Origin: a virus
Length of the DNA: 64,000 nt
Reading direction: 5' to 3' (one strand)
IMG/VR virus record: IMGVR_UViG_3300005527_000060
Under the pieces are notes generated by a model. That model was given only the letters and a program-made list of their open reading frames with translations. It made no database searches and had not been told where the DNA came from. Positions 16,656 through 64,000 of the stretch are shown piece after piece; position 1 is the stretch's first letter, and the number at the start of each line of letters is the position of its first letter. The position numbers and the translations under genes are program-made.

Positions 16656-17688
16656 TATAATAATCCTCCAACGATTTAAAACTATAAAAGCTATCTAAAG
16701 TTCTTATCTTTTGGATAACTTCTCTATTTTCTTGTTGTTTGAAACCTCTTAACAAACTTATATAGTTTGGTAAAGAGACTTTAATATTGTTTGAATTATA
16801 TTTAATTAATAGATCTAAATCATGTATTAAATCTACTGAAGGATTATTAGTAATTTGTTCTATTATATCATCTATTAATATCTTAAGCAGCACTGTTGGA
16901 TTTGTATTTCTCAACCACAATTCACAAATATTAATTGCGGCTTTATAGTTTTTATTATATAAAGCGTGCCAAAAAGATTGTCTATCTGTAGCTCCACCAA
17001 TAAGGATGTTGCTAATACTTCTAGTACTATCAACTCCTGCACAATACTCTATCAGACTACTAATTTTTCTCATATTACCATCAGATAATAGAGCTAATAG
17101 TTTTGCATCTTTGTAGTTATATGGCCAGTTATCCAACACATAATCAATACAGTCTTTAGTTGTATGACTATTTAATTCTAGCTCCTTACATCTACTAGAT
17201 AAAGCATCTAAGATTGTATTAGATAGCTTACTTAGATCCATTGATATAAGAATCCAAGTGGTTGTTTCAGGAGTTGTATCTATATAACCTAACAGACTTT
17301 GTATGTGAGTACTATTTAACAACTGTATTTCATCTAACACAACAAACTTTCTGGTAAAGCCAATATCATTTAAATATAAAGGTGCTTCTTTAGCCCAGAG
17401 GTTTATTTCACCCAATAAGTCTGTCATGCCATCTAAGTTAGATATCTGTCTCCATTTAACATTATCTAACTCTCTAATATTAGTATTACAATAAACACAT
17501 TCTCCACAAGGCTTTTCTTCCTTACTAGAACACAATAAAGATCTAATACTTAACTCTGTTAATAAACTTTTACCCACCCCTGGTGGCCCAGTAATAAGCA
17601 ATGCAGAAGGAAACCTATTCTTACTAACACATTTCTTCATATAAGAAACAGCATTAGATTGTCCCTTATAATCATTCCAATTAATCAT
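16636..17688 (-). CDS. clamp loader subunit (RFC / DNA pol III gamma-tau-like AAA+ ATPase)
   Basis: Walker A LLITGPPGVGKSLL, Walker B FVVLDEIQ, SRC motif LSSRCKEL, Cys4 cluster CGECVYC as in gamma/tau. Confidence 0.65.
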   Translation of the reverse strand: MINWNDYKGQSNAVSYMKKCVSKNRFPSALLITGPPGVGKSLLTELSIRSLLCSSKEEKPCGECVYCNTNIRELDNVKWRQISNLDGMTDLLGEINLWAKEAPLYLNDIGFTRKFVVLDEIQLLNSTHIQSLLGYIDTTPETTTWILISMDLSKLSNTILDALSSRCKELELNSHTTKDCIDYVLDNWPYNYKDAKLLALLSDGNMRKISSLIEYCAGVDSTRSISNILIGGATDRQSFWHALYNKNYKAAINICELWLRNTNPTVLLKILIDDIIEQITNNPSVDLIHDLDLLIKYNSNNIKVSLPNYISLLRGFKQQENREVIQKIRTLDSFYSFKSLEDYYIEHCIY

Positions 17689-18314
17689 ATAACTCCAGCC
17701 AAAGTTAAAAATCTTATCATATCCTGTTTAAATAACCAAGTATGACTATATATTGGCACTGGTAAAACAGGAGTTTCATCTTCATTCTTTGGCAAGTATC
17801 TAAGAGGAGTAATTGGATTCCAAGTAACCACACATGGTCTGCCAGCATATGTCAATCCTACTTCATTTCTTAGCTTACTTATACTAGCTTTACTACCAAA
17901 TAATTGAGTAACAGCCTCTGAAGAAGCCACTAATATTGGAGCTTTACTATTACATTTAGATATTTCAAACTGTGTCCAATTACCACACTTCTCTATACAA
18001 GTTTTTGTTTCCTTCTTATTGTTTTTAACACTACAACTAAGAGCATTTGTAAAAAAGAAGTTATTATCTATATCAATATCATCTGTAATACTTCTAATAA
18101 CTCTTCTAAGAAATCCACCAGCATTCAAATATCCAGGCGCTTCAACTAATACTTTCTTTTCTTTCTCTTCTTCTTTGCCACTATAAGCAGATATAATAAT
18201 ACCTCTTATATTACTAAGAGGTATTTCTGCTTGCCCCCAAATTGGTGGTATTCTGGGATTAGATAAATGACAATTAGAACAAGTATTAGGTAATCCTATA
18301 GCTCTATAAGTCAA
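17685..18314 (-). CDS. uracil-DNA glycosylase-like protein (family 4-like)
   Basis: N-terminal Cys cluster, VLVEAPGYLNAGG resembling the UDG GE(A/G)PG motif. Weak. Confidence 0.4.
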   Translation of the reverse strand: MTYRAIGLPNTCSNCHLSNPRIPPIWGQAEIPLSNIRGIIISAYSGKEEEKEKKVLVEAPGYLNAGGFLRRVIRSITDDIDIDNNFFFTNALSCSVKNNKKETKTCIEKCGNWTQFEISKCNSKAPILVASSEAVTQLFGSKASISKLRNEVGLTYAGRPCVVTWNPITPLRYLPKNEDETPVLPVPIYSHTWLFKQDMIRFLTLAGVI

Positions 18315-18315
18315 T

Positions 18316-18540
18316 TTAAATACCTAAATATTTTATTAGTTCATCAGTTTTAATATCATGTGTCATTGCTCTAGCGCCAGTTATAACACTTTTTTCAATC
18401 CTTTGTTTAAAAGGATCTACTGCATCTTTAACTAGATTATCAATTAAAAATGTATCTAATAATTTAAGCTGCTCTGAAGTTAAATCAGTATTTAATAATT
18501 CTTTAAGCAAGTTAATACTTAATGTTGTATTATTCATCAT
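18316..18540 (-). CDS. hypothetical small protein
   Basis: 74-aa ORF in operon-like array. Confidence 0.3.
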   Translation of the reverse strand: MMNNTTLSINLLKELLNTDLTSEQLKLLDTFLIDNLVKDAVDPFKQRIEKSVITGARAMTHDIKTDELIKYLGI

Positions 18541-18745
18541 GACATTCTAATTTTTCCTTTAACAAGTTAATAATATCTTGTCTAGACATATCTTCTACTT
18601 CTCTATATACTTCATCTTTTATTCTAACAAGGGCAGTTTCTGCTCTCTCATTAATTAAGATATCTAGTAAAGCTTGTTCAACTATTGCTGCTTGATCTGT
18701 ATGCAATTTAGAGTCTAATAGTTGAACTAATAATTCATTTTTCAT
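18530..18745 (-). CDS. hypothetical small protein
   Basis: 71-aa ORF, overlapping neighbours. Confidence 0.3.
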   Translation of the reverse strand: MKNELLVQLLDSKLHTDQAAIVEQALLDILINERAETALVRIKDEVYREVEDMSRQDIINLLKEKLECHDE

Positions 18746-18963
18746 TTAGGCATGTCAGGAATTAAATTATAATTATCAGTTAATGCTTTATCATCTTGAT
18801 TAACAATCTGCCTTCTAATTTTAGCCATAGTATTTTCATCTTTATTCTTTTGCTTATTAAAGTAATAAGCAATTAACTGAGATCTATACAAAGCTCTTTG
18901 TTCTGGACTTAACATAAATTTATATACATGTATATACAATTGTTGTTGTTTCAATAGCCCCAC
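18742..18963 (-). CDS. hypothetical small protein
   Basis: 73-aa ORF, TGA stop. Confidence 0.3.
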   Translation of the reverse strand: MGLLKQQQLYIHVYKFMLSPEQRALYRSQLIAYYFNKQKNKDENTMAKIRRQIVNQDDKALTDNYNLIPDMPK

Positions 18964-20047
18964 TATCAGGACTATTTATTACTAAAATAGTAATATCTGT
19001 ATCAACTAGAGCTGTAACTCTTTGATTAATAGTAACTCCTGGACAGTTATTATTAGTAAGGCTAAGTGCTTGTTTAATGTGATTAACTTCTAATCTAACA
19101 TCAACAAAATTACCATCATATAACTCTGGCTTTAACTTTGCTGGCTCTTTACTAGTGGTACTAAAAACCTCTAGTAAAGTATTACTTTTATCACTATTTA
19201 AACAAATATAATCACCTTCAGTGTGAAAACCAATAGCCAAGTCTAACTCTGATCTCTTAACTGTAATACATCCACCAGCTTCTAATGCATATATATTATT
19301 AATAGTCTTTTCTATATTAACTATAGAACTAAGACTCTTATAACATACAACTCCTTTATCAGAGCTAAACATTAGCCACTTATTATTATTGTTATAACCT
19401 ATAGTTACAGAGCTGCCTAGAAAGGATAAACTACTATTTAATAGAACAGGTTTAATAGCAAAAGTTATATTTCCAATAGAGTCTAATTTAGACATAAACA
19501 AGTTATTACCTGTTATGCCAAACTTGCCACTAATGACTAACTCTTTGCTGTCACCTTTAAAGCCAATAACACTGCTATCACAAGTCTTAGCAATATCACT
19601 AACAGATAATAAATGAGGAATAAGAGTAGTATTGTCTTCATCTAATACAATATATTTATTCTCATCTAAGAAGTCTGAATTATGCAGACTAGTATTATCA
19701 ATCCAAATAGATTCACCAATAGAACCCATATTTAAAAGACTAAAGTTTAATACATTATTCTTTAAACTAACTTTTAAGTAAGATGCTTTTGTTGGTATTT
19801 TACTTAGTAACAATGACAACTTGGTAAAGTGAATTAAGCAGGTTCCATCTACATTGCTATTACCTTCTAAGGGATATAAGAACTTAGCACCATAATTACT
19901 ATTAACAGCAGTAAAGCTTAACTGATCACCTATGACAGTTACTTCTACACATTGTTCTAAGGAGGATGCAGTTTTATTATTTGCTAAGCTTATTGCCTGT
20001 TTAGCAGTATTTTTGAATCTAGTGATATCTGTAATTGTAAATAACAT
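18920..20047 (-). CDS. putative sliding clamp (beta-clamp-sized) - tentative
   Basis: 375 aa (DnaN size), located in the replication module downstream of the clamp loader. No strong motif; assignment by context only. Confidence 0.25.
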   Translation of the reverse strand: MLFTITDITRFKNTAKQAISLANNKTASSLEQCVEVTVIGDQLSFTAVNSNYGAKFLYPLEGNSNVDGTCLIHFTKLSLLLSKIPTKASYLKVSLKNNVLNFSLLNMGSIGESIWIDNTSLHNSDFLDENKYIVLDEDNTTLIPHLLSVSDIAKTCDSSVIGFKGDSKELVISGKFGITGNNLFMSKLDSIGNITFAIKPVLLNSSLSFLGSSVTIGYNNNNKWLMFSSDKGVVCYKSLSSIVNIEKTINNIYALEAGGCITVKRSELDLAIGFHTEGDYICLNSDKSNTLLEVFSTTSKEPAKLKPELYDGNFVDVRLEVNHIKQALSLTNNNCPGVTINQRVTALVDTDITILVINSPDSGAIETTTIVYTCI

Positions 20048-20616
20048 TAAGAATCTCCTTTTACGTCATAAGGACTTATAAGATCATCACTTAAGCCATC
20101 ATCATCTTCACTATCATCATCTTCATACTCATCACTTCTAGCTAAGTTCTTAGGATCTACAATCTTTAAGTTAAGCATATATCTAACATCTTCTTTAATT
20201 ATTTCAATTTGATCAAAGATAAGATTAAAGAAAGGAACTAAGTCCATACCTTGATATATGTTTGTCTCATAAGTTAGCTGTAAAAACACAACACCATTTG
20301 AGTTAATAGTCTCTGAAAAAAGATTAGCTATTAAATCAGGTCTTTCTCCATATTCCATAATCTTTTCAATCACCTGATCTAAGTCAGATTCAGTTGCAAT
20401 ATGAATAACTCCTACATTAAACTTAGTTCTTATAAAACTAACACCAGTAGAAACATTTAAATCAAAGAATATATTACTATCAACTGTTTTTAATTTCCAA
20501 TCATCTTTAGTTAAAAGACTGGTCAAATAATTATTAATCAGCCAAGTAGAAAACTTAGAGTTATAAATTGTATCTCTAATATAATCTAAGCTAGTAATTT
20601 TATTTAAATTTGTCAT
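20047..20616 (-). CDS. hypothetical protein with strongly acidic C-terminal tail
   Basis: 189 aa ending DEYEDDDSEDDDGLSDDLISPYDVKGDS. SSB-like acidic tail, otherwise unassigned. Confidence 0.35.
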   Translation of the reverse strand: MTNLNKITSLDYIRDTIYNSKFSTWLINNYLTSLLTKDDWKLKTVDSNIFFDLNVSTGVSFIRTKFNVGVIHIATESDLDQVIEKIMEYGERPDLIANLFSETINSNGVVFLQLTYETNIYQGMDLVPFFNLIFDQIEIIKEDVRYMLNLKIVDPKNLARSDEYEDDDSEDDDGLSDDLISPYDVKGDS

Positions 20617-20619
20617 AAT

Positions 20620-20956
20620 TTATTTCAAGTATTTTTCATTAAATACAGACTTAAAGTATAACTTATCTTTCTTCTAAATAGTCAAAAGGATTACAACCAC
20701 AAATATTAGTCTCTCTATTATTAGCATTTAATAAGTTTTCAATAGTAAGTTGACTTACATCTAACTCTATTAAATGGTCCTATTCTAAGACTTTTATAAC
20801 CTCACTATGTTTACCAGCAACTTCTCCTAAATATAAAGTAGAACCAATAATATTTTTAACTTCTACCTATGTTGAGACAAATAAACCTTCTAAGATACCA
20901 TAAAGATGGTTTAAGTTAAACTTATATAGTTTCTTAATACTTATATCTTCTGTCAT
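20620..20956 (-). other. candidate gene or pseudogene: 111-codon frame open except for two in-frame TAG codons
   Basis: ATG at 20956-20954 overlaps the polA exon-2 stop (TAATATG). Frame MTEDISIKKLYKFNLNHLYGILEGLFVST(TAG)VEVKNIIGSTLYLGEVAGKHSEVIKVLE(TAG)DHLIELDVSQLTIENLLNANNRETNICGCNPFDYLEER ends at TAA 4 nt before the next gene. No TAA/TGA in 111 codons of ~75% AT DNA. Confidence 0.3.
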
Positions 20957-20957
20957 A

Positions 20958-21119
20958 TTATTTCTTCCAACAAGGAGCAATTGTTAAACTACTAAAACCA
21001 CCAGTCTCACAATCAAAGTATTGCTTTAACATATCACCTTGTATTGTTTCCATCATATCTCTTAGTTTATTTCCCACTTCTTCTGCTGAGTCTTTATGCA
21101 ACTCATATACAATTTCATC
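20958..21119 (-). CDS. polA: DNA polymerase I-family polymerase, exon 2 (C-terminal 53 aa)
   Basis: Starts immediately after an intron-terminal G (..cataaatG|GATGAA). Encodes DEIVYELHKDSAEEVGNKLRDMMETIQGDMLKQYFDCETGGFSSLTIAPCWKK, which aligns with the Pol I segment after motif C (VH|DELVFEVHKDDVDAVAKQIHQLME...). Confidence 0.75.
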   Translation of the reverse strand, partial: DEIVYELHKDSAEEVGNKLRDMMETIQGDMLKQYFDCETGGFSSLTIAPCWKK

Positions 21120-22152
21120 CATTTATGTTACATGCTAAACGTTTCCTTTAACACTCTTATACTTTCATATAAGATCAGACTATATCATAGTATATTTCTA
21201 TACTCCCTGCTTTTCAGATACACTGTACCTTACTCTACTCAGTTATACATAATAATTATGTACCTTTTTGATAGTCGTTGAAGGAGATACAAGATCTTTA
21301 TATCCCCCTGCTGATTGCCCAATCTTCTTAGTTTTTATAACTATCAAGTATATTATTCCTAATTGCTTTGTAGTTAAGAAGCTCTAAGGGGTTTCCAGCA
21401 AAGCCACTTTAAAATAATCTTCTGCTTCTTGTTTGGTATGAAAATATTTACGCTTCATTTTGTTTCCATTCCAGGTTCTTACTTCCCATCTATTTCTTTC
21501 AGTTTTAAAAGAAAAGCCACCCTTTTTATCCCCATTTAACTTTCTAGAGTTTTTACCTCTTAGAGAAGTAATTCTACTTTCTTCTTCTAAAGAATTTAAT
21601 TCTTCTAAAGAAAATATTGTATCTGGGTTGTTTAAAACAGCACTGCTCTCAAATAATTCTAAAGCTTTTAAGTCATAATACTTTATTGCTGATTCAATAT
21701 TTGAGAAGGTTCTATGATAAGTAATTCCTGAATTAGCTATTAATACTGCATATGAAGTAGTACCATCTTTAAGAATCTTTTCTCTAATTCCATAATAACC
21801 ACTTAAAGGTTTAGCCCTTAATCTGTTATGTATGTTTACAGAATATGTAACTACTTTCAAATTAGAAAGACAGTTATTTAATTTATTTCTATCAAGATGA
21901 TCAACAACATATCCTTTTAAAGGACACATCAAAAATTGATGTAAATACATACTTCGTCTATTAAAGTAGCATCCTACATAATCTTCTGAAGGTGCAATAA
22001 ATAATTTGACATTTAATAAGTCAAGTAAATCTACTGTTGACTTGTCTAATAAAACTTCTTTTCCACGCAAATAAATTGTTTCCATTACATTAAACTAAAA
22101 CTATATTTTAATTATAGCATAACAGGGTTTAAAGTGCACAATGATAAGGGCT
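21120..22152 (-). mobile_element. group I self-splicing intron in polA, carrying an HNH-AP2 homing endonuclease ORF
   Basis: 5' exon ends ..GTG CAU (U before 5'SS), intron ends in G. On minus strand in order: P-like AATTGCTGGAAACCCC (21400-21387), Q-like GGCAATCAGCAGG (21320-21308), R-like TTCAACGACTATC (~21275-21262), S-like GATATAGTCTGAT (~21185-21175). Confidence 0.7.
21384..22085 (-). CDS. HNH homing endonuclease with two AP2 DNA-binding domains (intron-encoded)
   Basis: HNH_3-type motif GYVVDHLDRNKLNNCLSNLKVVTYSVNIHNR. AP2-like YYGIREK...YHRTFSNIESAIKYYDLKALELF and WEVRTWNGNKMKRKYFHTKQEAEDYF. TAG stop lies inside the intron P element. Confidence 0.75.
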   Translation of the reverse strand: METIYLRGKEVLLDKSTVDLLDLLNVKLFIAPSEDYVGCYFNRRSMYLHQFLMCPLKGYVVDHLDRNKLNNCLSNLKVVTYSVNIHNRLRAKPLSGYYGIREKILKDGTTSYAVLIANSGITYHRTFSNIESAIKYYDLKALELFESSAVLNNPDTIFSLEELNSLEEESRITSLRGKNSRKLNGDKKGGFSFKTERNRWEVRTWNGNKMKRKYFHTKQEAEDYFKVALLETP

Positions 22153-24255
22153 ATGCACTAAAGCTACAATACAATTTCTAACTTTGTATCTATTATTTAC
22201 TTCTTCTAAATACTTTCTAACATATGGCAGGGTTACTTTTAGTTGATCAGCACAAAATCCTTGAACATATCCATTTGGACCCTTTCTTTGAGCTGAAGCA
22301 TCATTTCCCTTTGAATTAGATTCATCTACCCATAACCATCTGCCAGTTGGTAGCCTTATTCTTTTACATCTAATTGCTTCTTTAGCACTATTATCAAGCC
22401 ACTCTTTAAGCTTAAAGAATTGACTAAAATAACTATGTAATACTTTAGCTGCATCTTCAACAGAACATTTTAAGTCTTCAGATAAACCTTGTTCAGTCTT
22501 ACCATAAATAACACTAAAGTTTAAAATCTTCCCTTGAAATCTGAAGTCTGTAGAAGAAGGTATACTACTTAATATATTAATAATATTAGTAGCTTCTTCA
22601 ATACTACATCCTAAATAGGTTTGTAGATCATTTATAGATTTATTATATACATCTAAATATAATAGATCTTTATTATTATAAGTATATTTAAAATTCTTAT
22701 GATTACCCTCAGCCATTTCTCTAATAAGTTCTGCTGGATAATTCTTTAAAGCTGGACATAAGCCCATAGCAGCTACAGTATGAGGATCAGTATAAGGATC
22801 TTCTACAGGTTTACCTTTCTTATTAAGTATTTGATTTCCATTATTATCTAATAGATATAACTGTTTTTTCTTTTGATAAAAGGGTGCTAAACCCGCTTCA
22901 TCTTTAGCATAAGCCATTGCAGTTAATACTTCTTGTGAACTAAAGTCAATGCCAGCAATAACATAATCTTGTCTAGCTATAAAACCGCTTCTAATGTCAT
23001 AATTGCCTCTAGCAATTACCTGTTGTAAATTCATCTTAAACTTTTTATCACCAACAATAATACTAGAAGAAGATGACATTCTACCAGTTCCAGCCCCCAC
23101 AGGATTAGTAGTAGCATGTAAAGCACCAGTTATTGGACTAACAATAGAGTTATATTTACTAATCTCTGTTATTAGTTTTTCCTGTCTTTTATATACAATA
23201 AAAGTATTTATAACCTCCTTTGCATCTTGCTTATTAGATATCATTTCTAAATCTACATCATCAGTGTCTTCCTCATCTTCATCATCATCTTGATTAGAAA
23301 GAAACTCTTTCATAATAGCAGCGTTCAAAGCAGTTAAATTAACTTTGAACTTACTATTAATAATAGTACCTAACTTCTTAGGATTATTAAAAATAGTTGT
23401 TACTATAGGAGATACTGTTAAAGATTGTTGTAAGATACCATCCTCATCTTCAACTAAAGACACTGATAATGGCTGATCTAATTGTCTTGCTAACTTAATC
23501 TTAGTATCATTAGATAGTTGTTCTAATTCTTTAATAAAGCTATTCATCTTAACTTTATCAATATTAAAACCAACATACTCAACAATAGCTAAGATTCTCA
23601 TTGCATCTTGATCTAGATTAAATGCATACTCTTGTTCATAATAACTTATAAGACTTTCTTTAACATTTATACATAATTCTAACCACTTAGTATTAACATC
23701 CATTGCTGAATATTCCAACTGAGCTTTACTAAGAATAGGGCTAGACCAATCAGATGTTTGTAATGTTTTATCCATTACAACTCCTGCAAAGTGTCTCATG
23801 ATAGAGCCTAAACTACTACCAATTGCCAACTTACTTTGTCTCCATCCAATAGATACATATAAAGTATTAAACATAACCATTGAACAGTATATATTGTTCA
23901 TTTCAATATTATAGTGATGTTTAATCTGTCTTATTTCAAAGGTTGCATTATGCGCCCATACAATAAATCTATTATTATTCTTTATTAGATTTAAGAAGGG
24001 CAGTATATCAACAGTATTTAATTCAACTACAACTGTTGGGCCATCATTACCAATCCAATTAATACTTATAAGTCTTAGCTTATTACAGTAGCAATCTAAA
24101 CCTGAGCTTACAAGTCTATATTCATCTTTAACATAGCCTTCAAAGTCAATACCAACATTTACCACTTCTTCTTTTGAAAGAGTTGTTAGAACATCTATTA
24201 TTTGTTCTAACAACTCTTGAGTAGTAATATAAGAATATATATTACTATTATGCAT
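22153..24255 (-). CDS. polA: DNA polymerase I-family polymerase, exon 1 (3'-5' exo + polymerase domains up to motif C ..ALVH)
   Basis: ORF 22129..24255 (708 aa) with exonuclease and family-A polymerase segments. Terminates 7 codons after ..IVALVH (motif C HDE missing its D-E); these codons (SPYHCAL*) are read-through into the intron. Confidence 0.8.
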
Positions 24256-24697
24256 CTTCTACTGAGCCAAAGATTTCTTCTAATACTTCAACTTCATCTG
24301 GCAGTTGTTCTGAAACCGTTTGTAAGAACAACTCATTTTGTGCTCTAGCCTCTGCTTCTGCATCATATAAACCAACTGCAGAAGTATCAAAATTACTTAT
24401 TGAATTAACTTGTGCTAACTCATTTCCAGTTGTTGAGGGTAATATTGGCTGCACAGAACCAGTTACATAAGAAGTATTATTCCTTGCATAGTTATTTCTG
24501 GCATTCTTATTAGGAGACACACCCAAAGATGCAGAAGAAAGTATCTCTGACAGTTCATTCAGCCTTTCATTTCCATAATCTAAAGTGGCTTTCAATAAAA
24601 GTAAATCATCAATAGAAATCTTCTTCAAGCCTTCTTTAGTAAAAAGATTTTTAAAATCTTTTATTGTTGTTTGAATTGGATTGCTTGTTTTAGCCAT
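24248..24697 (-). CDS. hypothetical protein
   Basis: 149-aa ORF overlapping the polA start. Confidence 0.35.
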   Translation of the reverse strand: MAKTSNPIQTTIKDFKNLFTKEGLKKISIDDLLLLKATLDYGNERLNELSEILSSASLGVSPNKNARNNYARNNTSYVTGSVQPILPSTTGNELAQVNSISNFDTSAVGLYDAEAEARAQNELFLQTVSEQLPDEVEVLEEIFGSVEDA

Positions 24698-24953
24698 CAG
24701 AATTATTCAACTCTTCAACGCCTTTAGCATAAACACTAGAAATTCTATTACCTTGAGTTTTAATACCTCTAATAGTATTAATAGGATAACTCATGATTTC
24801 CTCAGAAGTAAACTCTGACAATTGAGCAAGAATAGTAGTTAGATTAACTTGTCTAGAAGATTTAGTCTTTGAAGATTTAGCTTCAGCAACGGTAATAACC
24901 TCAGGGTCATTTTGAATAAGATCAACCAATGAAGTATTATTAGTAGGTTCCAT
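24690..24953 (-). CDS. hypothetical small protein
   Basis: 87-aa ORF. Confidence 0.3.
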   Translation of the reverse strand: MEPTNNTSLVDLIQNDPEVITVAEAKSSKTKSSRQVNLTTILAQLSEFTSEEIMSYPINTIRGIKTQGNRISSVYAKGVEELNNSDG

Positions 24954-24982
24954 AATTAAATTTCAGTCCTTATTTTTTTAAA

Positions 24983-25999
24983 TTAACATTTAGAATTAAC
25001 AGCATCTCTTAAAGCTTCAAATAGTTCAGGATCTTCTCTTAGTTTAGCTTCTAAGTTGTTTTCCCCTTGAACTTTAATTGGCTCTTCAGAGCTTAAATTT
25101 GGCAAACTTAATGTGATCCAAGAACCAGCAACCTTTATTAGTTCCTCCTTCTTGGCCATTCTAATTACATCTATATACTTATTGTAATTAGTATTAGTAA
25201 TAGTTTTATCAATACTATCTTGTTCAAGATCTACTTGCATTTCAATGCTTCTTAGTGCTTTACCATATTTAGATTTTATACATTTAATCTGAACATCAAA
25301 GTTATTAATGCCTTCTTCATCTGGTGATTTAAGAGCCTTCTTAGTTGTCATTAGTCTAATAGAAGCCCAATAAGGTAAACCCTTACCACCCATACTACCT
25401 TCTGGATTACCATATCCACTTAAGTTAGTATTTCTAACCTGATTAATAAGAATAAGTACTACATCATTCTTTTTACATTTAACACTAAACTGTGGAAGAT
25501 TTTCACTTAACAGTCTAGCTCTAATACCCATTACAAATACATCACCAATCTCTTTACTTTCATCTGTTAACTTCTCTGGAACTAAGCCAGCAACACTATC
25601 AATAATGACAGCACAGAAGTCTTCAGTAAGAAATGATCTAGTACATTGTAAGGCTTCTTCAGCACTTGTTGCATCTACTAATAATACTTTATCTGGGTCT
25701 AATCCTATATTAGTAGCATGACAAGAAGTATAGCCAAACTCTGCAGCCTGTACATAGCCAACAAATCTATCAGTTTGTTTTTGTAGTTGAGCTGCTATAT
25801 ACATAGCTAACAATGACTTAGTTGTTTGTTCTGGCCCATATATTTCAATAATAGTACCATGTGGAACGCCGCCACCTAACAAGTGATTTATAGAAGGAGA
25901 TTCAAGTTTAAATCTTTCAACTTCAACTTGGTTACCAATACAAACTTGCTTTTTACCAACTACCTTTTCAGTTAGCTTTACATACTCTTTTAAATCCAC
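24983..25999 (-). CDS. UvsX/RecA-like recombinase
   Basis: 338 aa. Modified Walker A IYGPEQTTKS (cf. T4 UvsX GPSKHFKS, RecA GPESSGKT), Walker B VVLILINQVR-type hydrophobic strand, L2-like GxG region. Confidence 0.55.
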   Translation of the reverse strand: MDLKEYVKLTEKVVGKKQVCIGNQVEVERFKLESPSINHLLGGGVPHGTIIEIYGPEQTTKSLLAMYIAAQLQKQTDRFVGYVQAAEFGYTSCHATNIGLDPDKVLLVDATSAEEALQCTRSFLTEDFCAVIIDSVAGLVPEKLTDESKEIGDVFVMGIRARLLSENLPQFSVKCKKNDVVLILINQVRNTNLSGYGNPEGSMGGKGLPYWASIRLMTTKKALKSPDEEGINNFDVQIKCIKSKYGKALRSIEMQVDLEQDSIDKTITNTNYNKYIDVIRMAKKEELIKVAGSWITLSLPNLSSEEPIKVQGENNLEAKLREDPELFEALRDAVNSKC

Positions 26000-26159
26000 T
26001 TACATAATACCTAATAAGATTAACCTTAAGAGGCAAACTTAATTATTCTAATGCATTATTAAAATCTTCTATAAAAGTATTAATACCTCCCTTGAAGTAT
26101 TTATTAACCCTTCCTTCACTACTCAACTCTATAAAAGCTTGTTGATAGTCTCTAACATC

Positions 26160-26525
26160 TTAAAGAGCTTCCATAGCTTTAATTATTTTATCCTCCTCTT
26201 GTTCAAAGTTGCAATCTTCATACACTTGATCACAATATTCTAACTCATCTTCTAATGTCCAAGTTCTTCCTAGATACCTTAACCAATCATCATGTTCAAG
26301 TGTATTATAATCTTGATAATTAGCGTCAGTAATCCGCCCACTCATAACTAAATCATCAACAGGATTTTTATCTAGTTCTTTAATTATTTCTCTATTTAGT
26401 TGAGCTTTTAATACTCTCTTATTTATTCTCTTTAACTTTCTTTTATACTTACCAGAAAGCTCTTTAAGGCTGTATTGTCTCTTGTTCTTGTCTGACATAT
26501 CCATTCTCCAACTGATCAAATACAA
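26160..26525 (-). CDS. hypothetical basic protein
   Basis: 121-aa ORF, K/R-rich N-terminus. Confidence 0.35.
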   Translation of the reverse strand: MYLISWRMDMSDKNKRQYSLKELSGKYKRKLKRINKRVLKAQLNREIIKELDKNPVDDLVMSGRITDANYQDYNTLEHDDWLRYLGRTWTLEDELEYCDQVYEDCNFEQEEDKIIKAMEAL

Positions 26526-26961
26526 GTTTAGACATTATAACAATAGTTCCATATTCTTTACTATTAATTAAATGTATTTCATCTATTCTATATTCTTTTG
26601 GAGTAATAGCTAACTTATTTACTGTAGTTCTACTCTTAATAGATATATGTATTTCATCACCATTAGGAAGTAGTAATATACCATCACCATCTCTAAACTT
26701 TGCTCCACTAGCTTCAGTGGCTTCTAAGCCAAAATCTTTTACTAATTGAGCCTCTACTTTTCTACCTCTTTTATTACATTCTTTACCTCTATTACTGGCT
26801 TTAATGTCTTTAGCAGGATGATCTTTTAAGTCCTTTATTTTTCTATTAAGGGGCTTATAATATAATTTACCAGTACCAACACCAGCAATACATTCAGAGC
26901 ATTTCTCTCCTGCATTAGTGCAATTCATTTCATATATATAAGGACAATTAACAAGCAGCAT
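26464..26961 (-). CDS. Zn-ribbon + PD-(D/E)xK-like nuclease (Hjc/Mrr-like), tentative
   Basis: N-terminal CxxC...CxxC (CPYIYEMNCTNAGEKCSEC), then ASGAKFRDGDGILLLPNGDEIHISIKSR resembling the Hjc SG...D...E-x-K core. Confidence 0.3.
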   Translation of the reverse strand: MLLVNCPYIYEMNCTNAGEKCSECIAGVGTGKLYYKPLNRKIKDLKDHPAKDIKASNRGKECNKRGRKVEAQLVKDFGLEATEASGAKFRDGDGILLLPNGDEIHISIKSRTTVNKLAITPKEYRIDEIHLINSKEYGTIVIMSKLVFDQLENGYVRQEQETIQP

Positions 26962-50583: not shown

Positions 50584-51159
50584 TTAATAGGAGGCCATCA
50601 TGTTTAGCCCTTCACTGCAAGTATTATCAATATTATCATCTACCTTGTTTCTAGGCATTGATACTGGAACACCAAACTCATGTTTAAATGTATGAGTGTA
50701 CAAATCAAGAAATACATCTTTCTCTTTAGTTCTACCAACAATCTTATATAGAATTAAGTTACCATTTTCATTAATAACTACATTATTAGCTTCTATAAAC
50801 TCTGAAAGGAAGTTTAAAGGTCTATAAGAAGGATTAAGCTTTAACTTATTCCAAAAGTTAATTAGAGGTTGAATATTAGTTAGTCTTTGCTCATACATAG
50901 TAATAATCATTCTATTAAGAGCTTTTGGAAGATTCTCTCCATTATAAGTAACTAATCCATTAGTAATCTCAATGCCTAAATTTTCTGCAATAACACTAGT
51001 AACATTTAAAAGTTTATATAATTCTTCTTCTTCATTATTTAATGCTAATTCTAATACTTGTGCATACTTAGCATCTTCTCTATTAATTGTGTAAGTTTTT
51101 CCTTTTACAATTACAGACAATGTAGTAGGAAAAATAAGGTAGTTAACGATGTTAGACAT
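50584..51159 (-). CDS. exon 1 of intron-split hypothetical gene (3' boundary / 5' splice site uncertain)
   Basis: 191-aa ORF whose last codons (..LNMMASY*) probably read into the intron. Downstream exon 49468..49177 lacks a start codon. Confidence 0.45.
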   Translation of the reverse strand: MSNIVNYLIFPTTLSVIVKGKTYTINREDAKYAQVLELALNNEEEELYKLLNVTSVIAENLGIEITNGLVTYNGENLPKALNRMIITMYEQRLTNIQPLINFWNKLKLNPSYRPLNFLSEFIEANNVVINENGNLILYKIVGRTKEKDVFLDLYTHTFKHEFGVPVSMPRNKVDDNIDNTCSEGLNMMASY

Positions 51160-52755
51160 TAGTTTGATTTTTGTTGTAATAATCTGTTTGCTTAATATAA
51201 TTACTCATTAATATATTTTGAGAACTATTGTTTTTAATACTTTGTTCTATTAAAGGATATGTTTGTTTAATCTTTGCCACTAAATCTAATAAATCTATTT
51301 CAGCCTTCTTTATTTTTATTAAACCTGCCTGATATAGATTTTTAAGTAAGTAGTGTTTATGCAAATAAGGAGTATACTTATTAGACTCTAAAAATAAAGA
51401 GGTTATAATACTATCTGGATTTTCTCTAATAAATAAGTCTTTATTTTCTAAATGAAGTAGTGTTGATCCACCGTATATTCTTGAATAATATATAAAATAA
51501 TTTGTGTCAATCTTATCAGCTAGTTTTTGCTGTATCTCTTCAATTAAATCTTTCCAACAATGCTTTACTAAAGAGGGATCATTAACAACATATATATCTT
51601 CTTCATTACAATAGTCAATAAGCTCATGTTTAAATATGTAAAAACTGCTTAAGTTATATACTTGTTTAGAAATATAATAGTAACTTTTATTAGTATCAAT
51701 ATTTAACTCTCTACCTAATACTCCTGGATATGCTGACAATCTATTGCATTTAGCATTAATAGATACTCTTTTAGTAGTATTAGTTGTCTTTTTAACCTCA
51801 AGATCTACCTTAGGAATAACACTAGAAAGCAGTCTAAGATTAAATATTTTATTGTCAATATTATTAACTAAACAGGTGTTTTCTAGTTCTTCTGCAGGAA
51901 TGTATTTACTTAAAGCTTTGACAGTTAAAGCATAAGATACATCATTATAATAATAAGTATAAGTCTTATTAAAGTAATGATACTTATTCTTACATTGAAT
52001 TATATTCCCCTTCCCCTTCTTTGTCTTATTAAAACATATAACTTCTTTTAGCCAGCTATTATAAGATATAGGATTATCCTTCCACTTAATTGGCCCAAAG
52101 AGTAAATTACTACTTGATAAGAAAGATTGAACATCATCCCAATGTTCAAACATTTCCATTTGTTCTTTTACATATTCTTTATATTCTGCAACAATATTAG
52201 ACAAACACTCAGCAATATATACTTTAGTCTTCTGACTTAATTGTATATCTTTATCTGCTGATTGATCAACTCTACCAATTTCAATATCAAATATAAACTT
52301 TTTATTTGTATTGACTTTTGACAAGTAATCTAGGTCTTGTGAATTTAAAACTTCTTTATAATTAGATAGCTCTATTTTATTAGGTAAGCCGCCAATCAAG
52401 CCAAATAAATTATTAGGATAAGTATCACTTCTAACAATTTTAAAATGTCTTCCTTCTTTAATAACTTGTTCTGGGACAACTAATTCCTTATCAACTGCAA
52501 CTAAAACATTATATAAATATCTAGTATTATTAGTTACATATCTACAAATATTAATAACATCATTCTCTTTAATCTCAAAAGATATCTCTACCCCTGTATC
52601 TTGAGTTGTTTTCTCTTTAGATAGCAATGAACAAAAGACCTTATTATTGTCTTTAGATATTACATATTCACATCTAACTCTGCCTTCTTCTTCTTCTGTA
52701 ATACTAATTACCACATACATATCAGTATATGCTAAAGGAGACATTCTACCTAGAC
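51152..52755 (-). CDS. large hypothetical protein; probably the 3' exon of a multi-intron gene
   Basis: 544-aa ORF (51152..52786) whose first codons abut the S element/3' end of the upstream intron. Likely exon start ~52755 after ..CAAGATAAACATGTTG|. No recognisable catalytic motif. Confidence 0.45.
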
Positions 52756-52834
52756 CAACATGTTTATCTTGTATTACTACAAGCATGGACTATATCATCA
52801 TTAACTATAAAAATAGTTAATGCTGGACGCTTTA

Positions 52835-53443
52835 CTATATATTTATTGCTTTATACTTCATACATTCAATTTGATTAACATAAGGTCTTACTATTTCTAA
52901 GAATCTTCTACCTTCTTTAGTAGACATTCTTAGTCTGTATAGATTTTTATGCTTTGTTATCTTCCAAGTAATATCCCATTTATCTTGAAAATATTTAACT
53001 ATTGTTTCATTTTCTTCTTTTGATAAATAAGTACTAAGAATTAATTCCCAAGCATGTATCTTGCCATTTCTTTTTTTAGGATATAAAGAACCATCATCCA
53101 TCCACCAAATAGCTAATCCTATAGGAGTTAGTCTATTTAAAGCTTTAAGAGGTATAGTTTTTACTTTATTTTTATATAAATATCTATGTAAAACTCTAAA
53201 ATATTTATGTCCTTTTTCTAAGACAACGGCAGGATATCCATTATTAACTATTTGTCTAACATTTATATTAGATTGAAAGATATTTCTAATTAAATTAGCT
53301 TTCCACTCTAAATATTCTTTTTGTTTTAGACAGTGAGTAATACTTAATCTACCAGATAATGAAGCATGACTAGGTTTTGCAACACAACCATCTCCAAAAA
53401 TAATTCCCATCAATATTGAAATGTTTTCTTTTGTTTTTAACAT
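52835..53443 (-). CDS. LAGLIDADG homing endonuclease
   Basis: LMGIIFGDGCVAK and LAIWWMDDGSLY motifs; tandem TAG-TAA stops. Confidence 0.7.
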   Translation of the reverse strand: MLKTKENISILMGIIFGDGCVAKPSHASLSGRLSITHCLKQKEYLEWKANLIRNIFQSNINVRQIVNNGYPAVVLEKGHKYFRVLHRYLYKNKVKTIPLKALNRLTPIGLAIWWMDDGSLYPKKRNGKIHAWELILSTYLSKEENETIVKYFQDKWDITWKITKHKNLYRLRMSTKEGRRFLEIVRPYVNQIECMKYKAINI

Positions 53444-53570
53444 ATCTTTTCACACTCTTGGTGTGGATATAAAATAATATAGATAGTCTCTGAACCTTCT
53501 CTTTCCTACAGAGCTTGGCTGCTGATTGCCCTTAATCTTAATTAGTGGGGTTTCCAGCAATTCATCCAGT

Positions 53571-54233
53571 TTAAAGTGGACATGGTTTTTTGTTATACTG
53601 ATTATTTTTAGTATGTGCTGATTTCCAAGTAAGATTATTTATTACATCCCACTTTCTTTGCATATATAAAGCATCATTATTTGTCATTAGATTAACTATA
53701 TTTATCATACTAGCTTGACGACCTACTTTTAGTTCATATTGATTTCTTCTTGAAACCAAACTGTATCTAATATCATATTCATCATATATTCCAATTAAGT
53801 ATTTAAAGAAAGAAGCGCAGTTTCCATAAATTGTAATTTTTTTATTATTATTAGAATCTACATAAACATTGCCATCTCCGTCAAAAACACCTCTTAAGAA
53901 ATCTCCTGGATATAGTAAAATACCAGGATTACCTAAAAGATGTATATTTTTTATACTTTTGCTTGGCACTAAACCATGACTCATTAAATCAATAACATAT
54001 TGTTTACTATAACAATAGATATACCAACTCTTTTCATCTTTAGACTTTTTAGGGGCACAAAAGAAAGGGAAAACATCTATTATTTTATATAATAATTCAA
54101 CATCATTAATCTTTATTCTGCAAGCATATTGTTGTCCTATATTATTTATAATAGTTCCATCACTATATATAAGACCTAGTAAATAAGCTTTATTTGGAGT
54201 ATCAATACTTTTAAACTCATCAGTATATTTCAT
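53571..54233 (-). CDS. LAGLIDADG homing endonuclease (double motif)
   Basis: AYLLGLIYSDGTI and LRGVFDGDGNVYV motifs; stop 10 nt upstream of the intron P element. Confidence 0.7.
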   Translation of the reverse strand: MKYTDEFKSIDTPNKAYLLGLIYSDGTIINNIGQQYACRIKINDVELLYKIIDVFPFFCAPKKSKDEKSWYIYCYSKQYVIDLMSHGLVPSKSIKNIHLLGNPGILLYPGDFLRGVFDGDGNVYVDSNNNKKITIYGNCASFFKYLIGIYDEYDIRYSLVSRRNQYELKVGRQASMINIVNLMTNNDALYMQRKWDVINNLTWKSAHTKNNQYNKKPCPL

Positions 54234-54300
54234 TATTAGATAATAAATTTATTATCTAATTATATCAAAAAATACATAGTTAAACATCAACTATATATGT

Positions 54301-54489
54301 TTATCCACCTAATAGATCATTACTATTAGACTTTGTTGAGTAACCAACCTTAGTATAATAATTAGTCATAAAGTCCCTACTTAGACCTTTAGCATAATCT
54401 CTAATAACAAGATGATTATCAAAATGATTAGGTAGAAATATATCTATAGGTTTTTTAATATCATGCTTTATATGTTCATCTAATGCGTT
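54301..54489 (-). CDS. short exon/ORF between two introns (..LYDNKLNALDEHIKHDIKKPIDIF..LLGG*)
   Basis: Frame opens right at the 3' end of intron B (GATAACAAATTG|AACGCA) with no ATG (track used TTG). Ends in TAA just before the first LAGLIDADG ORF. Confidence 0.3.
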   Translation of the reverse strand, partial: NALDEHIKHDIKKPIDIFLPNHFDNHLVIRDYAKGLSRDFMTNYYTKVGYSTKSNSNDLLGG

Positions 54490-54830
54490 CAATTTGTTAT
54501 CATAAAGGCTCTTTATCCTTTATTTCTTTATATTTCTATAAAGTTCGGACTATATCATCATCCTAATTAGTTAGGATGTCCTGCGCTCTTGTCTCCTTAT
54601 CACCATATATTATAAAAAATACTTAGGCTCGTTATGTTTTTATAACATAATAGATTATTTAATCTAAGAGATAGTCTCTGAACATTCAAATACATTTCTG
54701 TATAAGCTTTGCTGCTGATTGCCTCGACTTAAGTATTTATGAATACTTGTAAGGGGTTTCCAGCAATTCACAGGATTTTTCAATAAGAATTACTTCTTAA
54801 AGCTCCAACTGTCTTATATTATTTATTTAC
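54490..54830 (-). mobile_element. group I intron (no ORF) with the same P/Q/R/S core as the two introns above
   Basis: P AATTGCTGGAAACCCC (54765-54752), Q GGCAATCAGCAGC (54723-54712), R GTTCAGAGACTATCTC (54684-54673), S GATGATATAGTCCGAAC (~54560-54546), terminal GGATAAAGAGCCTTTATGATAACAAATTG (54518-54490). Confidence 0.6.
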
Positions 54831-54835
54831 TTAAA

Positions 54836-55006
54836 TATAATAATATTTTTAGAGAACGTTTCTTTAAAAGCCGCCAATAATGGATTAGTATAAATATTAT
54901 TTCTTAGAATGCCTAATATTAAAGCAGTTTGACTTTCATCTATAGAAAAGAAACTCTGTTTTAAATTAGACTTAAACTCTTCTTGTACAACTGGTATCAT
55001 TGTTTT
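54836..55006 (-). CDS. small hypothetical ORF (57 aa) abutting the intron 5' side
   Basis: MIPVVQEEFKSNLKQSFFSIDESQTALILGILRNNIYTNPLLAAFKETFSKNIIIFK*. Not in track (<60 aa). All three frames closed before the P element. Confidence 0.25.
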
Positions 55007-63933: not shown

Positions 63934-64000
63934 TAGTCCTAGAAAGATTTGAACTTTCACTGAATAGATTCTAAGTCTACCGCCTCTTCCAATTGGGCTA
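63934..64000 (-). tRNA. tRNA, 5' end beyond the window; anticodon loop CTTAGAA (anticodon UAG)
   Basis: Minus strand: U8-A9, D arm GCCC-AATTGGAAG-AGGC, anticodon arm GTAGA-CTTAGAA-TCTAT, 5-nt variable loop, T arm GAAAG-TTCAAAT-CTTTC, acceptor 3' strand TAGGACT + A. Anticodon UAG would be Leu(CUN), but the short variable arm is atypical for bacterial tRNA-Leu. Confidence 0.45.

What the first reader, a model, noticed from the sequence alone, without database searches (positions are those of the whole stretch)
20958..24255. Family A DNA polymerase split inside motif C (..LVH | DE..) by a ~1 kb group I intron carrying an HNH-AP2 endonuclease
The 708-aa pol ORF stops 7 codons after ..IVALVH. The missing D-E of the HDE catalytic motif and the final 53 residues (DEIVYELHKDSAEEVGNKLRDMME..CWKK, alignable to Pol I after VHDE) are encoded 1033 nt downstream, directly after an intron-terminal G. 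The 5' exon ends in U. The intervening sequence has P/Q/R/S-like elements and a complete HNH + 2xAP2 ORF. The functional enzyme therefore requires splicing, and the supplied ORF track mis-terminates the gene.
Basis: partly seen in the sequence, partly recalled or inferred. Interest (0 to 1): 0.6.

Follow-up and report, generated by a model that had tools for sequence, protein, structure and literature searches.

The report
Group I intron splitting phage DNA polymerase
A 1033-base self-splicing (group I) intron carrying a homing-endonuclease gene interrupts the catalytic H-D-E motif of a large phage's DNA polymerase gene; it is real and very well supported, but it is an ordinary example of a well-known kind of mobile element.

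Summary
The family A polymerase ORF (22129..24255, minus strand) stops 7 codons after ..IVALVH. The missing D-E and the last 53 residues start at 21119, right after an intron-terminal G.

- **Exact junction seen:** a public contig (L016) is 100% identical to the window over 8.6 kb but lacks exactly 22152..21120. Its 754-aa polymerase equals the predicted spliced protein.
- **Intron-less relatives:** several homologues read ..ALVHDEIVYEL.. without a break.
- **Ribozyme:** the 3' 245 nt match Rfam RF00028 (32.4 bits, below the cut-off of 50, because a 716-nt insert splits the ribozyme). ORF-less 255-284 nt introns at the same codon in relatives score 75.5 and 63.1 bits.
- **Structure:** P1 (U·G at the splice site), P10, P3-P9.1 and the terminal G are all present, with compensatory changes.
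- **Endonuclease:** the ORF is HNH plus two AP2-fold domains.
- **Mobility:** the intron is 96.6-99.3% identical between phages whose flanking polymerase exons are 66-80% identical.

Group I introns with HNH genes in phage polymerase genes are well known, including at this codon (E. coli 881) in T7-like phages. One minor unusual point: the endonuclease gene sits between P3 and P4, inside a long closing stem. This is a new member of a known kind.

The parts
22153..24255 (-). DNA polymerase exon 1 (codons 1-701: 3'-5' exonuclease, then polymerase motifs A and B, ending ..IVALVH)
   Evidence: Pfam DNA_pol_A 105.7 bits and DNA_pol_A_exo1 57.9 bits. Collinear with intron-less homologues P0002, P0003, P0006, P0007, P0020 and P0056.
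21120..22152 (-). Group I intron, 1033 nt, IA2-like. It starts after U22153 and ends with G21120.
   Evidence: Absent, to the base, from the 100% identical contig L016. RF00028 matches 21156..21400 at 32.4 bits, E 8.6e-7. Same-site ORF-less relatives score 75.5 and 63.1 bits. Helices checked.
22134..22144 (-). Internal guide sequence UCAUUGUGCAC. GUGCAC pairs with the exon 1 end GUGCAU (P1, U·G at the splice site). UCAUU pairs with the exon 2 start GAUGA (P10).
   Evidence: 8/8 and 5/5 canonical pairs. In the distant relative L022 the exon reads GUCCAU and the guide reads GUGGAC, a compensatory change.
22121..22127 (-). P3 5' strand CCCUGUU. It pairs with AGCAGGG at 21205..21211.
   Evidence: 7/7 pairs. 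It occupies the same position, after the conserved UUAAAC, as P3 in the ORF-less relatives and in the K44, Staphylococcus and Aeromonas phage introns.
21403..22119 (-). Insert between P3 and P4 (a P3.1-type hairpin): leader, endonuclease ORF and a long closing stem (GCUAU/GUGGC, UUAAAAUA/UAUUUUAA and further pairs)
   Evidence: RNAfold of the insert alone pairs its two ends with p>0.9. The expected number of end-to-end pairs is 20.9, against a mean of 3.8 and a maximum of 14.3 in 30 shuffles. The same architecture, with a different stem sequence, occurs in L022.
21384..22085 (-). Homing endonuclease gene, 233 aa: HNH catalytic domain (about residues 54-87) and two AP2-fold DNA-binding domains (about 98-148 and 188-231). 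Its last 17 nt double as the 5' strands of P4 and P5.
21120..21400 (-). Ribozyme core downstream of the ORF: P4, P5/P5a, P6, P7, P7.1, P7.2, P3', P8, P7', P9, P9.1 and the terminal G
   Evidence: RF00028 alignment. Helix coordinates. Compensatory changes in P3, P4, P7, P7.1, P7.2, P8, P9 and P9.1 among six or seven related introns.
20958..21119 (-). DNA polymerase exon 2 (DEIVYELHKD..CWKK, 53 codons plus stop). It supplies the catalytic Asp and Glu of motif C.
   Evidence: Continuous with exon 1 in intron-less homologues. Aligns to Taq HDELVLE.

Best explanation
The window comes from a large (about 230 kb), AT-rich phage whose family A DNA polymerase gene is interrupted between the His and Asp codons of motif C (..VH|DE..) by a mobile group I intron of the IA2 type.

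Inferred mechanism, from the established group I pathway:
1. In the pre-mRNA the last six exon bases GUGCAU pair with the intron guide GUGCAC (P1, U·G at the cleavage site).
2. Free guanosine bound in P7 attacks after U22153.
3. The terminal G21120 then enters the same site, while P10 (GAUGA/UCAUU) holds exon 2.
4. The exons are ligated, restoring ..ALVHDEIVYEL.. and a 754-aa polymerase.

The intron carries a 233-aa HNH endonuclease with two AP2-type DNA-binding domains. The gene lies in a long hairpin between P3 and P4. The enzyme presumably nicks or cuts intron-less polymerase alleles of co-infecting relatives, so that recombinational repair copies the intron in (homing).

Shown here: the boundaries, the ribozyme core, the domain make-up of the ORF, the presence/absence polymorphism, and lateral spread. 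Inferred: catalysis itself, the endonuclease's activity and its target.
For: - **Exact boundaries:** L016 is 100% identical on both sides and lacks exactly 22152..21120. Its protein equals the predicted spliced protein, 754/754.
- **Other intron-less alleles:** L020 (95.6% and 98.5% nt identity) and L001 (85%) are collinear at the same point. Five uninterrupted homologues read IVAL[VI]HDEIVYEL.
- **Ribozyme:** RF00028 matches 21156..21400 at 32.4 bits, E 8.6e-7. ORF-less introns of 255-284 nt at the same codon in L015 and L008 score 75.5 and 63.1 bits, above the cut-off of 50.
- **Helices:** all are canonical in every sequence checked. Compensatory changes include P7 GACUA/UAGUC versus GAUCA/UGAUC, and P1 GUGCAU/GUGCAC versus GUCCAU/GUGGAC.
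- **Essential residues:** the spliced junction aligns to Taq VHDE, the catalytic motif C. The polymerase therefore cannot work unspliced, yet the interrupted gene is seen on 17 contigs of up to 228 kb.
- **Mobility:** the intron is 96.6% (L011) and 99.3% (L004) identical to the window's. Over the last 600 nt of exon 1 the identities are 66% and 70%, and exon 2 is 80% identical in L011.
- **Endonuclease:**
Against: - No RNA or biochemical evidence was available. I could not establish whether L016 (JGI 3300005420) is a metagenome (an intron-less allele) or a metatranscriptome (a spliced RNA).
- The window's own intron does not reach Rfam's curated threshold (32.4 against 50 bits), and a search of the whole 4 kb found nothing. 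The reason is that the 716-nt insert splits the model.
- The endonuclease gene sits in a less usual place, between P3 and P4, next to the J3/4 nucleotides that contact P6. One could doubt that such a ribozyme folds efficiently.
- The AP2 domains fail Pfam in this protein.
Confidence: 0.93

Rival explanations
1. A fractured polymerase gene without RNA splicing. A free-standing HNH endonuclease gene has split the gene, and the 708-aa N-terminal product and a 54-aa C-terminal peptide (MDEIVYEL..) are translated separately and assemble in trans.
For: Exon 2 is preceded by an in-frame start codon made of the last three intron bases: AUG here, and AUG or GUG in all relatives. Both pieces are called as separate genes in public annotation. 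Split phage genes with intervening endonuclease genes are known (general knowledge).
Against: The intervening sequence has a complete group I core with covariation. Its guide sequence pairs with both exon ends. The break falls between adjacent catalytic residues, H|DE. ORF-less 255-nt versions occupy the same site, which a free-standing endonuclease insertion does not explain. By eye there is no Shine-Dalgarno-like sequence before the AUG.
Confidence: 0.03
2. A decayed intron. The ribozyme no longer splices because the large insert disrupts it, so the polymerase gene in this genome is a pseudogene, or the phage relies on another polymerase.
For: The RF00028 score is below threshold. The insert lies at J3/4, a functionally sensitive junction.
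Against: All core helices are intact and the consensus P7, J8/7 and J6/7 sequences are retained. The same insert architecture is conserved in a distant lineage (L022: endonuclease 47% identical, different stem sequence), which argues for selection. The endonuclease ORF is intact in three diverged copies, with 15 synonymous and 10 non-synonymous differences between the window and L011. The exons are intact and identical to those of the intron-less allele. The interrupted allele is the commoner one, on 17 contigs against 1.
Confidence: 0.03
3. An assembly artefact: the 1033-nt segment was wrongly joined into the contig.
For: One contig lacks the segment.
Against: The same intron at the same position occurs in independent assemblies from different samples and sources: L003/L004, L011 and L021, and 17 contigs carrying P0001. 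It has the exact hallmarks of a group I intron.
Confidence: 0.01

Closest known systems
[quoted passage not shown]
   Same: Family A polymerase. The insertion is reported at E. coli position 881, which is the His of the VHDE motif, so the same codon boundary as here or within a codon of it. Subgroup IA2. Carries an HNH endonuclease gene.
   Different: Those endonuclease ORFs are in P6a; here the ORF lies between P3 and P4. The host is a roughly 230 kb AT-rich phage rather than a 40 kb podovirus. I could not read the original paper, so identity of the site to the base is not verified.
SPO1, SP82, Bastille and Pf-WMP3 polymerase introns (I-HmuI, I-HmuII, I-BasI, I-PfoP3I)
   Different: Those introns are inserted at E. 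coli position 674, in the fingers, not in motif C. I-HmuI uses NUMOD and helix-turn-helix type DNA-binding modules, not AP2.
Introns of Salmonella phage Kenya-K44 (helicase gene), Staphylococcus phage JDF86 (lysin gene, 'AP2 domain protein' ORF), Aeromonas phage PS1 and Bacillus phages AR9/PBS1
   Same: The P4-P6 domain is 78-81% identical in nucleotide sequence to window 21308..21401. Same IA2-like core.
   Different: Different host genes. In K44 and the Staphylococcus phage the ORF lies in the P8 loop and J3/4 is a plain AAU or UAAU.
HNH-AP2 homing endonucleases (HNH_3 plus AP2 architecture, widespread in phages)
   Same: The same domain order, with an I-HmuI-type HNH motif followed by AP2. 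11,809 cluster representatives match at E<=1e-3. Of 19 aligned relatives, 19 match HNH_3 and 10 match Pfam AP2.
   Different: The AP2 domains here are too diverged for Pfam. The second one is shortened at its C-terminal end, where the ORF runs into P4 and P5.

Membership tests
Group I intron (Rfam RF00028) | Match to the covariance model of the conserved core (P3-P9) at or above the curated score | tested here: inconclusive
   Window 21156..21400 scores 32.4 bits, E 8.6e-7, below the cut-off of 50. The match is truncated at its 5' end because a 716-nt insert separates P1-P3 from P4. There is no hit when the whole 4 kb is searched. ORF-less introns at the same codon score 75.5 bits (L015) and 63.1 bits (L008), full length.
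Group I intron (Rfam RF00028) | 5' exon ends in U, paired as U·G in P1 with an internal guide sequence; intron ends in G; P10 possible | tested here: met
   GUGCAU|AG pairs with UUGUGCAC, 8/8, with U22153·G. The last intron base is G21120. P10 is GAUGA/UCAUU, 5/5. P1 covaries with the exon in L022.
Group I intron (Rfam RF00028) | P3/P7 pseudoknot and the P4-P6 and P3-P8 domains supported by covariation | tested here: met
   All helices are canonical in 6-7 sequences. Both-side changes occur in P3, P4, P7, P7.1, P7.2, P8, P9 and P9.1. RNAalifold finds 7 pairs with compensatory changes in the parts that MAFFT aligns. The sample is small and the helices were assigned by hand.
Group I intron (Rfam RF00028) | Precise removal that restores the reading frame | tested here: met
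   A sequence lacking exactly 22152..21120 exists and is otherwise 100% identical. Whether it is DNA or RNA is unknown.
Group I intron (Rfam RF00028) | Guanosine-dependent self-splicing | not testable with these tools
   Needs an in vitro transcription and splicing assay, or RNA from infected cells.
Subgroup IA2 | Extra helices P7.1 and P7.2 between P7 and P3' | tested here: met
   Two hairpins lie at 21262..21246 and 21229..21217. In the ORF-less relatives the two hairpins are joined by GUA, as described for IA2 (PMC3428280). No subgroup-specific model was run.
HNH (His-Me finger) homing endonuclease, I-HmuI type | HNH_3 motif with the catalytic His and the Asn residues | tested here: met
HNH (His-Me finger) homing endonuclease, I-HmuI type | Site-specific cleavage or nicking of the intron-less allele | not testable with these tools
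   Indirect support only: the intron is 96.6-99.3% identical across phages whose exons are 66-80% identical.
AP2 DNA-binding domain (Pfam PF00847) | Match to the AP2 profile; three-stranded sheet packed on a helix | tested here: inconclusive
Family A DNA polymerase | Motifs A, B and C, with catalytic Asp and Glu in motif C | tested here: met
   Pfam DNA_pol_A scores 105.7 bits. The spliced sequence aligns to Taq and Klenow through ..VHDE.. at E about 1e-14. Without exon 2 the Asp and Glu are missing.

The most novel reading that the evidence does not exclude
The endonuclease cassette occupies a site not used in the characterised phage polymerase introns. It is a roughly 700-nt hairpin inserted between P3 and P4 (a giant P3.1), closed by a 15-20 bp long-range stem that brings P3 and J3/4-P4 back together.

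This architecture is conserved, with a different stem sequence, in a distant lineage (L022: endonuclease 47% identical, same polymerase codon). The ribozyme also looks like a recombinant. Its P1-P3 and P7'-P9.1 parts resemble the ORF-less introns at the same site, while its P4-P6 domain resembles introns of T5-like, Twort-like and Aeromonas phages.

If both points hold, this would be a case of modular assembly of a mobile intron, and it would show that the J3/4 junction tolerates a very large insertion.
Probability: 0.35. Interest if true: 0.35.

Novelty: new member of a known kind. Interest (0 to 1): 0.27.

Why it matters
- **Annotation:** the polymerase of this phage group is deposited as a truncated 708-aa 'hypothetical protein' plus a 54-aa orphan. 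The true product is 754 aa.
- **Biology:** the finding adds an uncultured lineage of roughly 230 kb AT-rich phages to the list of phages whose polymerase genes are hot spots for mobile introns. This lineage has at least three insertion sites, and alleles with zero, one or two introns coexist.
- **A ready-made natural experiment:** intron-plus and intron-minus alleles that are 100% identical in their flanks, ORF-less and ORF-containing introns at one codon, and an endonuclease gene in an unusual position in the ribozyme.

None of this changes current understanding of group I introns or homing.

Tried and rejected
- **Rfam over the whole 4 kb** found no group I hit. Only the ORF-free 3' part gave one. 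The full-window search at gathering threshold also missed this intron.
- **Related loci:** IMG/VR gave only two distant loci. The metagenome scan gave four, of which two were useful.
- **Word-indexed protein search for the endonuclease** found only its own cluster. The exhaustive search was needed.
- **MAFFT and RNAalifold on the two intron types together** misaligned P4-P8, so helices were assigned by hand and checked by script.
- **Promoter scan:** the number of hits is not above the shuffled expectation in this AT-rich DNA. The TGCTATAAT before the endonuclease gene is therefore only a by-eye remark.
- **Sample type of JGI 3300005420 / Ga0068879:** not found in the paper library.
- **Bonocora & Shub 2004** is not held.
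- **An alternative P3 next to P4** (GCUUU/AAAGC) was considered and rejected. It leaves no J3/4, has no counterpart in L022, and ignores the conserved UUAAAC-P3 position seen in all relatives.
- **Intein, group II intron and frameshift** were rejected. There are in-frame stops directly after the junction, no group II signal, and the missing segment has exact group I boundaries.
Full report
**1. The observation**

On the minus strand there are three ORFs:
- a 708-aa ORF (22129..24255) ending ..NCIVALVH-SPYHCAL*;
- a 233-aa ORF (21384..22085);
- a 54-aa ORF (20958..21122) reading M-DEIVYELHKD..CWKK.

The last base of the His codon is U22153. The next 1033 nt (22152..21120) end in G, and 21119 starts GAT GAA in frame. 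Joining 22153 to 21119 gives a 754-aa protein. Pfam assigns the large ORF to DNA_pol_A (105.7 bits) and DNA_pol_A_exo1 (57.9 bits), and the middle ORF to HNH_3 (30.9 bits, cut-off 24.8).

**2. Is the junction real?**

A protein search with the joined sequence found uninterrupted homologues: P0002 (88% identical), P0003, P0006, P0007 and P0020. All read IVAL[VI]HDEIVYEL straight through. Many others stop just after ..LVH, with read-through tails such as SPYHCAL, KRSNCAL or NPYHCAH.

The 90% cluster of the 708-aa protein also holds a 754-aa member, P0056, which is 754/754 identical to my predicted spliced protein. Its contig L016 (JGI 3300005420, 8.7 kb) is 100.000% identical to window 26575..22153 and then to 21119..16958. 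Exactly the proposed 1033 nt are missing and nothing else differs.

Two further intron-less alleles are collinear at the same point: L020 (95.6% and 98.5% identical) and L001 (about 85%). I could not find out whether L016 is DNA or RNA. Either way it fixes the boundaries.

The joined sequence aligns without a gap to Taq ..LQVHDELVLEAPKERAE.. and to Klenow (E about 1e-14). The break therefore lies inside motif C, between the His and the catalytic Asp-Glu.

**3. Is it a group I intron?**

Rfam found nothing when the whole 4 kb was searched. Searching only 21100..21400 gave RF00028 at 32.4 bits, E 8.6e-7. The alignment covers P4, P5, P6, the P7 5' strand (CUUCAACGACUA), P3', P8, GAUAUAGUCU and P9.

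Relatives carry ORF-less introns of 255-284 nt at exactly the same codon: L013, L014, L015 and L008. L015 scores 75.5 bits and L008 63.1 bits over the full model, above the curated 50.

By hand, checked by script, the window's intron has:

| Element | Pairing |
|---|---|
| P1 | GUGCAU·AG / UUGUGCAC, with U22153·G |
| P10 | GAUGA / UCAUU |
| P3 | CCCUGUU / AGCAGGG |
| P4 | UGCUG / CAGCA |
| P6 | GGGGAUA / UAUCUCC |
| P7 | GACUA / UAGUC |
| Also present | P5/P5a, P7.1, P7.2, P8, P9, P9.1 and the terminal G |

Every helix is canonical in every sequence examined. Compensatory changes occur in P3, P4, P7 (GACUA/UAGUC versus GAUCA/UGAUC), P7.1, P7.2, P8, P9 and P9.1. In a distant relative the exon reads GUCCAU and the guide reads GUGGAC. 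P7.1 and P7.2 place the intron in the IA2-like group.

**4. The ORF**

- It matches PHROG 99, 'HNH endonuclease', at 1e-23.
- It matches I-HmuI (1u3e) over the HNH motif at E 8e-4, and the double-AP2 plant factor WRI1 (7wq5) over residues 123-231 at E 1.5e-4.
- Pfam AP2 itself fails (E 0.16).
- An exhaustive search found 11,809 cluster representatives at E<=1e-3. In an alignment of 19 of them all match HNH_3 and 10 match Pfam AP2.
- An AlphaFold model (pLDDT 86.8) shows strand-strand-strand-helix units at 100-148 and 190-231.

'HNH plus two AP2' is therefore right, with diverged AP2 domains.

**5. Mobility**

| Compared with the window | Intron identity | Exon 1, last 600 nt | Exon 2 |
|---|---|---|---|
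| L004 (243-kb contig) | 99.3% (7 differences in 1033 nt) | 70% | 98.8% |
| L011 | 96.6% | 66% | 80% |

An element far more conserved than its essential host gene, present or absent at one exact site, with ORF-less versions at the same site, is the classical signature of homing.

In L021 the polymerase has two introns: one with a 389-aa LAGLIDADG ORF before ..QGFCADQ.., and this HNH intron in motif C. Other homologues stop in motif A (GIDFSS|). The family therefore has at least three insertion sites.

**6. Where the ORF sits**

In the ORF-less relatives and in the related introns of Salmonella phage K44, Staphylococcus phage JDF86 and Aeromonas phage PS1, the order is UUAAAC - P3 - (U)AAU - UGCUGG (P4). 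In K44 and the Staphylococcus phage the ORF is in the P8 loop.

In the window the order is CCCUGUU (P3) - AU - [716 nt] - UU - UGCUGG (P4). The leader and ORF therefore lie between P3 and P4, and the ORF's last 17 nt form the 5' strands of P4 and P5.

Folding the insert alone pairs its two ends with probability above 0.9 (GCUAU/GUGGC, UUAAAAUA/UAUUUUAA and more). The expected number of end-to-end pairs is 20.9, against a mean of 3.8 and a maximum of 14.3 in 30 shuffles. The one difference in L011 keeps the pair (U·G to U-A).

The nearest other relative of the endonuclease (P0068, 47% identical) lies in a 213-kb contig, L022. There it is again in a polymerase gene after ..VVH|DE.., again between P3 (CUUGG/CCAAG) and P4. 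It is again closed by a long stem, but with a different sequence (GAAUUAAA/UUUAAUUC). The expected number of end pairs is 18.4, against 2.9 in shuffles. Its 3' core scores 35.2 bits. The arrangement is therefore conserved and presumably functional.

Reviews list an optional P3.1 pairing in group I introns (PMC3873408). The position is thus not unheard of, but it differs from the P6a and P8 locations of the characterised polymerase introns.

The ribozyme also looks mosaic:
- intron nt 752-845 are 78-81% identical to the K44, Staphylococcus and Aeromonas introns, and show no detectable similarity to the ORF-less same-site introns;
- nt 948-1033 are 86-89% identical to the ORF-less same-site introns.

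**7. Comparison with what is known**

Self-splicing IA2 introns with HNH endonucleases in phage family A polymerase genes have been known since SPO1. PMC3428280 lists insertion sites at E. coli positions 674 (SPO1, SP82, Bastille, Pf-WMP3), 676 (phiL7) and 881 (the T7-like PhiI and W31). His881-Asp882-Glu883 is the motif split here, from established knowledge of Pol I, so the same site is already on record. I could not read the original paper to confirm this to the base.

A 2025 survey found 45 introns in Bastillevirinae, most of them in polymerase genes, often two or three per gene and mostly with HNH ORFs (PMC11878797). The present case is a new member of this kind in an uncultured, AT-rich (28.9% G+C) large phage. 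Its polymerase has no close relative among deposited phages; the best is Microcystis phage Ma-LMM01 at 28%.

**8. Rivals**

- **Trans-assembling split polymerase.** Exon 2 has a start codon formed by the intron's last three bases, AUG or GUG in all relatives. The complete, covarying ribozyme, the guide sequence that pairs with both exons, and the ORF-less versions all argue against it.
- **Dead intron or pseudogene.** Contradicted by intact helices, an intact ORF in three diverged copies, conservation of the architecture in L022, and the fact that the interrupted allele is the common one (17 contigs against 1).
- **Assembly artefact.** Excluded by independent assemblies.

**9. Verdict**

Confidence that this is a functional, mobile group I intron is about 0.93. 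Novelty is a new member of a known kind, and interest is modest (about 0.27). The main practical consequence is correcting the annotation of the polymerase. The position of the endonuclease gene and the mosaic ribozyme are the only points a specialist might want to follow up.

Noticed in passing
window 54526..54825 (-): A second group I intron, RF00028 at 75.7 bits over the full model, ORF-less, with the same TGCTGGAAACCCCTTA P4-P5 sequence as the polymerase intron. It lies between the small ORFs 54827..55000 and 54301..54492. By eye these join as ..ETFSKN|ALDEH.. The host gene was not identified: Pfam gave nothing for my guessed join.
   Followed up: partly
window about 52769..54300 (-): A third group I intron in the same gene, with its core in two pieces: RF00028 at 39.1 bits on 53460..53566 (P3-P7) and 18.2 bits on 52769..52879 (P8-P9). 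It carries two LAGLIDADG ORFs. The first is 53571..54233 (LAGLIDADG_3, 4e-8), upstream of P3. The second is 52835..53443 (LAGLIDADG_2, 3.4e-37), in the P8 region. The 544-aa ORF 51152..52786 would be the downstream exon, with no Pfam match.
   Followed up: partly
L021 5001..9692; proteins P0005, P0012, P0018, P0019, P0023 and P0024: Relatives of this polymerase carry introns at two other sites. One is before ..QGFCADQ.. (the exon ends GPNGFV; in L021 that intron holds a 389-aa LAGLIDADG_3 ORF, and the HNH intron in motif C is also present). The other is in motif A (the exon ends GIDFSS or GIDFTA). Alleles with zero, one and two introns coexist.
   Followed up: partly
window about 22559..22699 (-), polymerase residues about 519-565: The window's polymerase, like P0002 and P0003, has an extra stretch of about 47 aa (KNFKYTYNNKDLLYLDVYNKSINDLQTYLGCSIEEATNIINILSSIP..) just before motif B. 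It is absent from P0004-P0008, P0012 and P0020. The stretch is too short for an intein and its function is unknown. It coincides with the most divergent part of the window/L004 comparison.
   Followed up: no
window 21120..21122 (-), and the same position in L004, L008, L011 and L013-L015: The last three bases of the intron are AUG (GUG in some relatives). Gene callers therefore give exon 2 a spurious start codon and report it as a separate 54-aa protein, P0053, seen on 29 contigs.
   Followed up: yes
window 22111..22119 (-): TGCTATAAT, which looks like an extended -10 promoter, lies 25 nt upstream of the endonuclease start codon and forms part of the 5' strand of the closing stem. A promoter scan of the region finds no more sites than in shuffled sequence, so this may well be chance in AT-rich DNA.
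   Followed up: partly
L022 1..3678 (NCBI GCA_050655955.1, 213-kb contig): In this more distant large phage the polymerase region is called as at least five consecutive short ORFs (1-489, 486-791, 788-1108, 1086-1463, 1948-2454) before the motif C intron. This suggests further interruptions or frameshifts. Only the motif C intron was examined.
   Followed up: no
L012 4972..5631: Another relative has, at the same codon, an intron whose P1-P3 is 93% identical to the window's but whose downstream core differs. The contig ends in an unrelated ORF before any exon 2 was found. It could be a different intron lineage or a chimeric contig.
   Followed up: no
window 63934..64000 (-): A tRNA gene cut by the end of the window (RF00005, 42 bits).
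   Followed up: no
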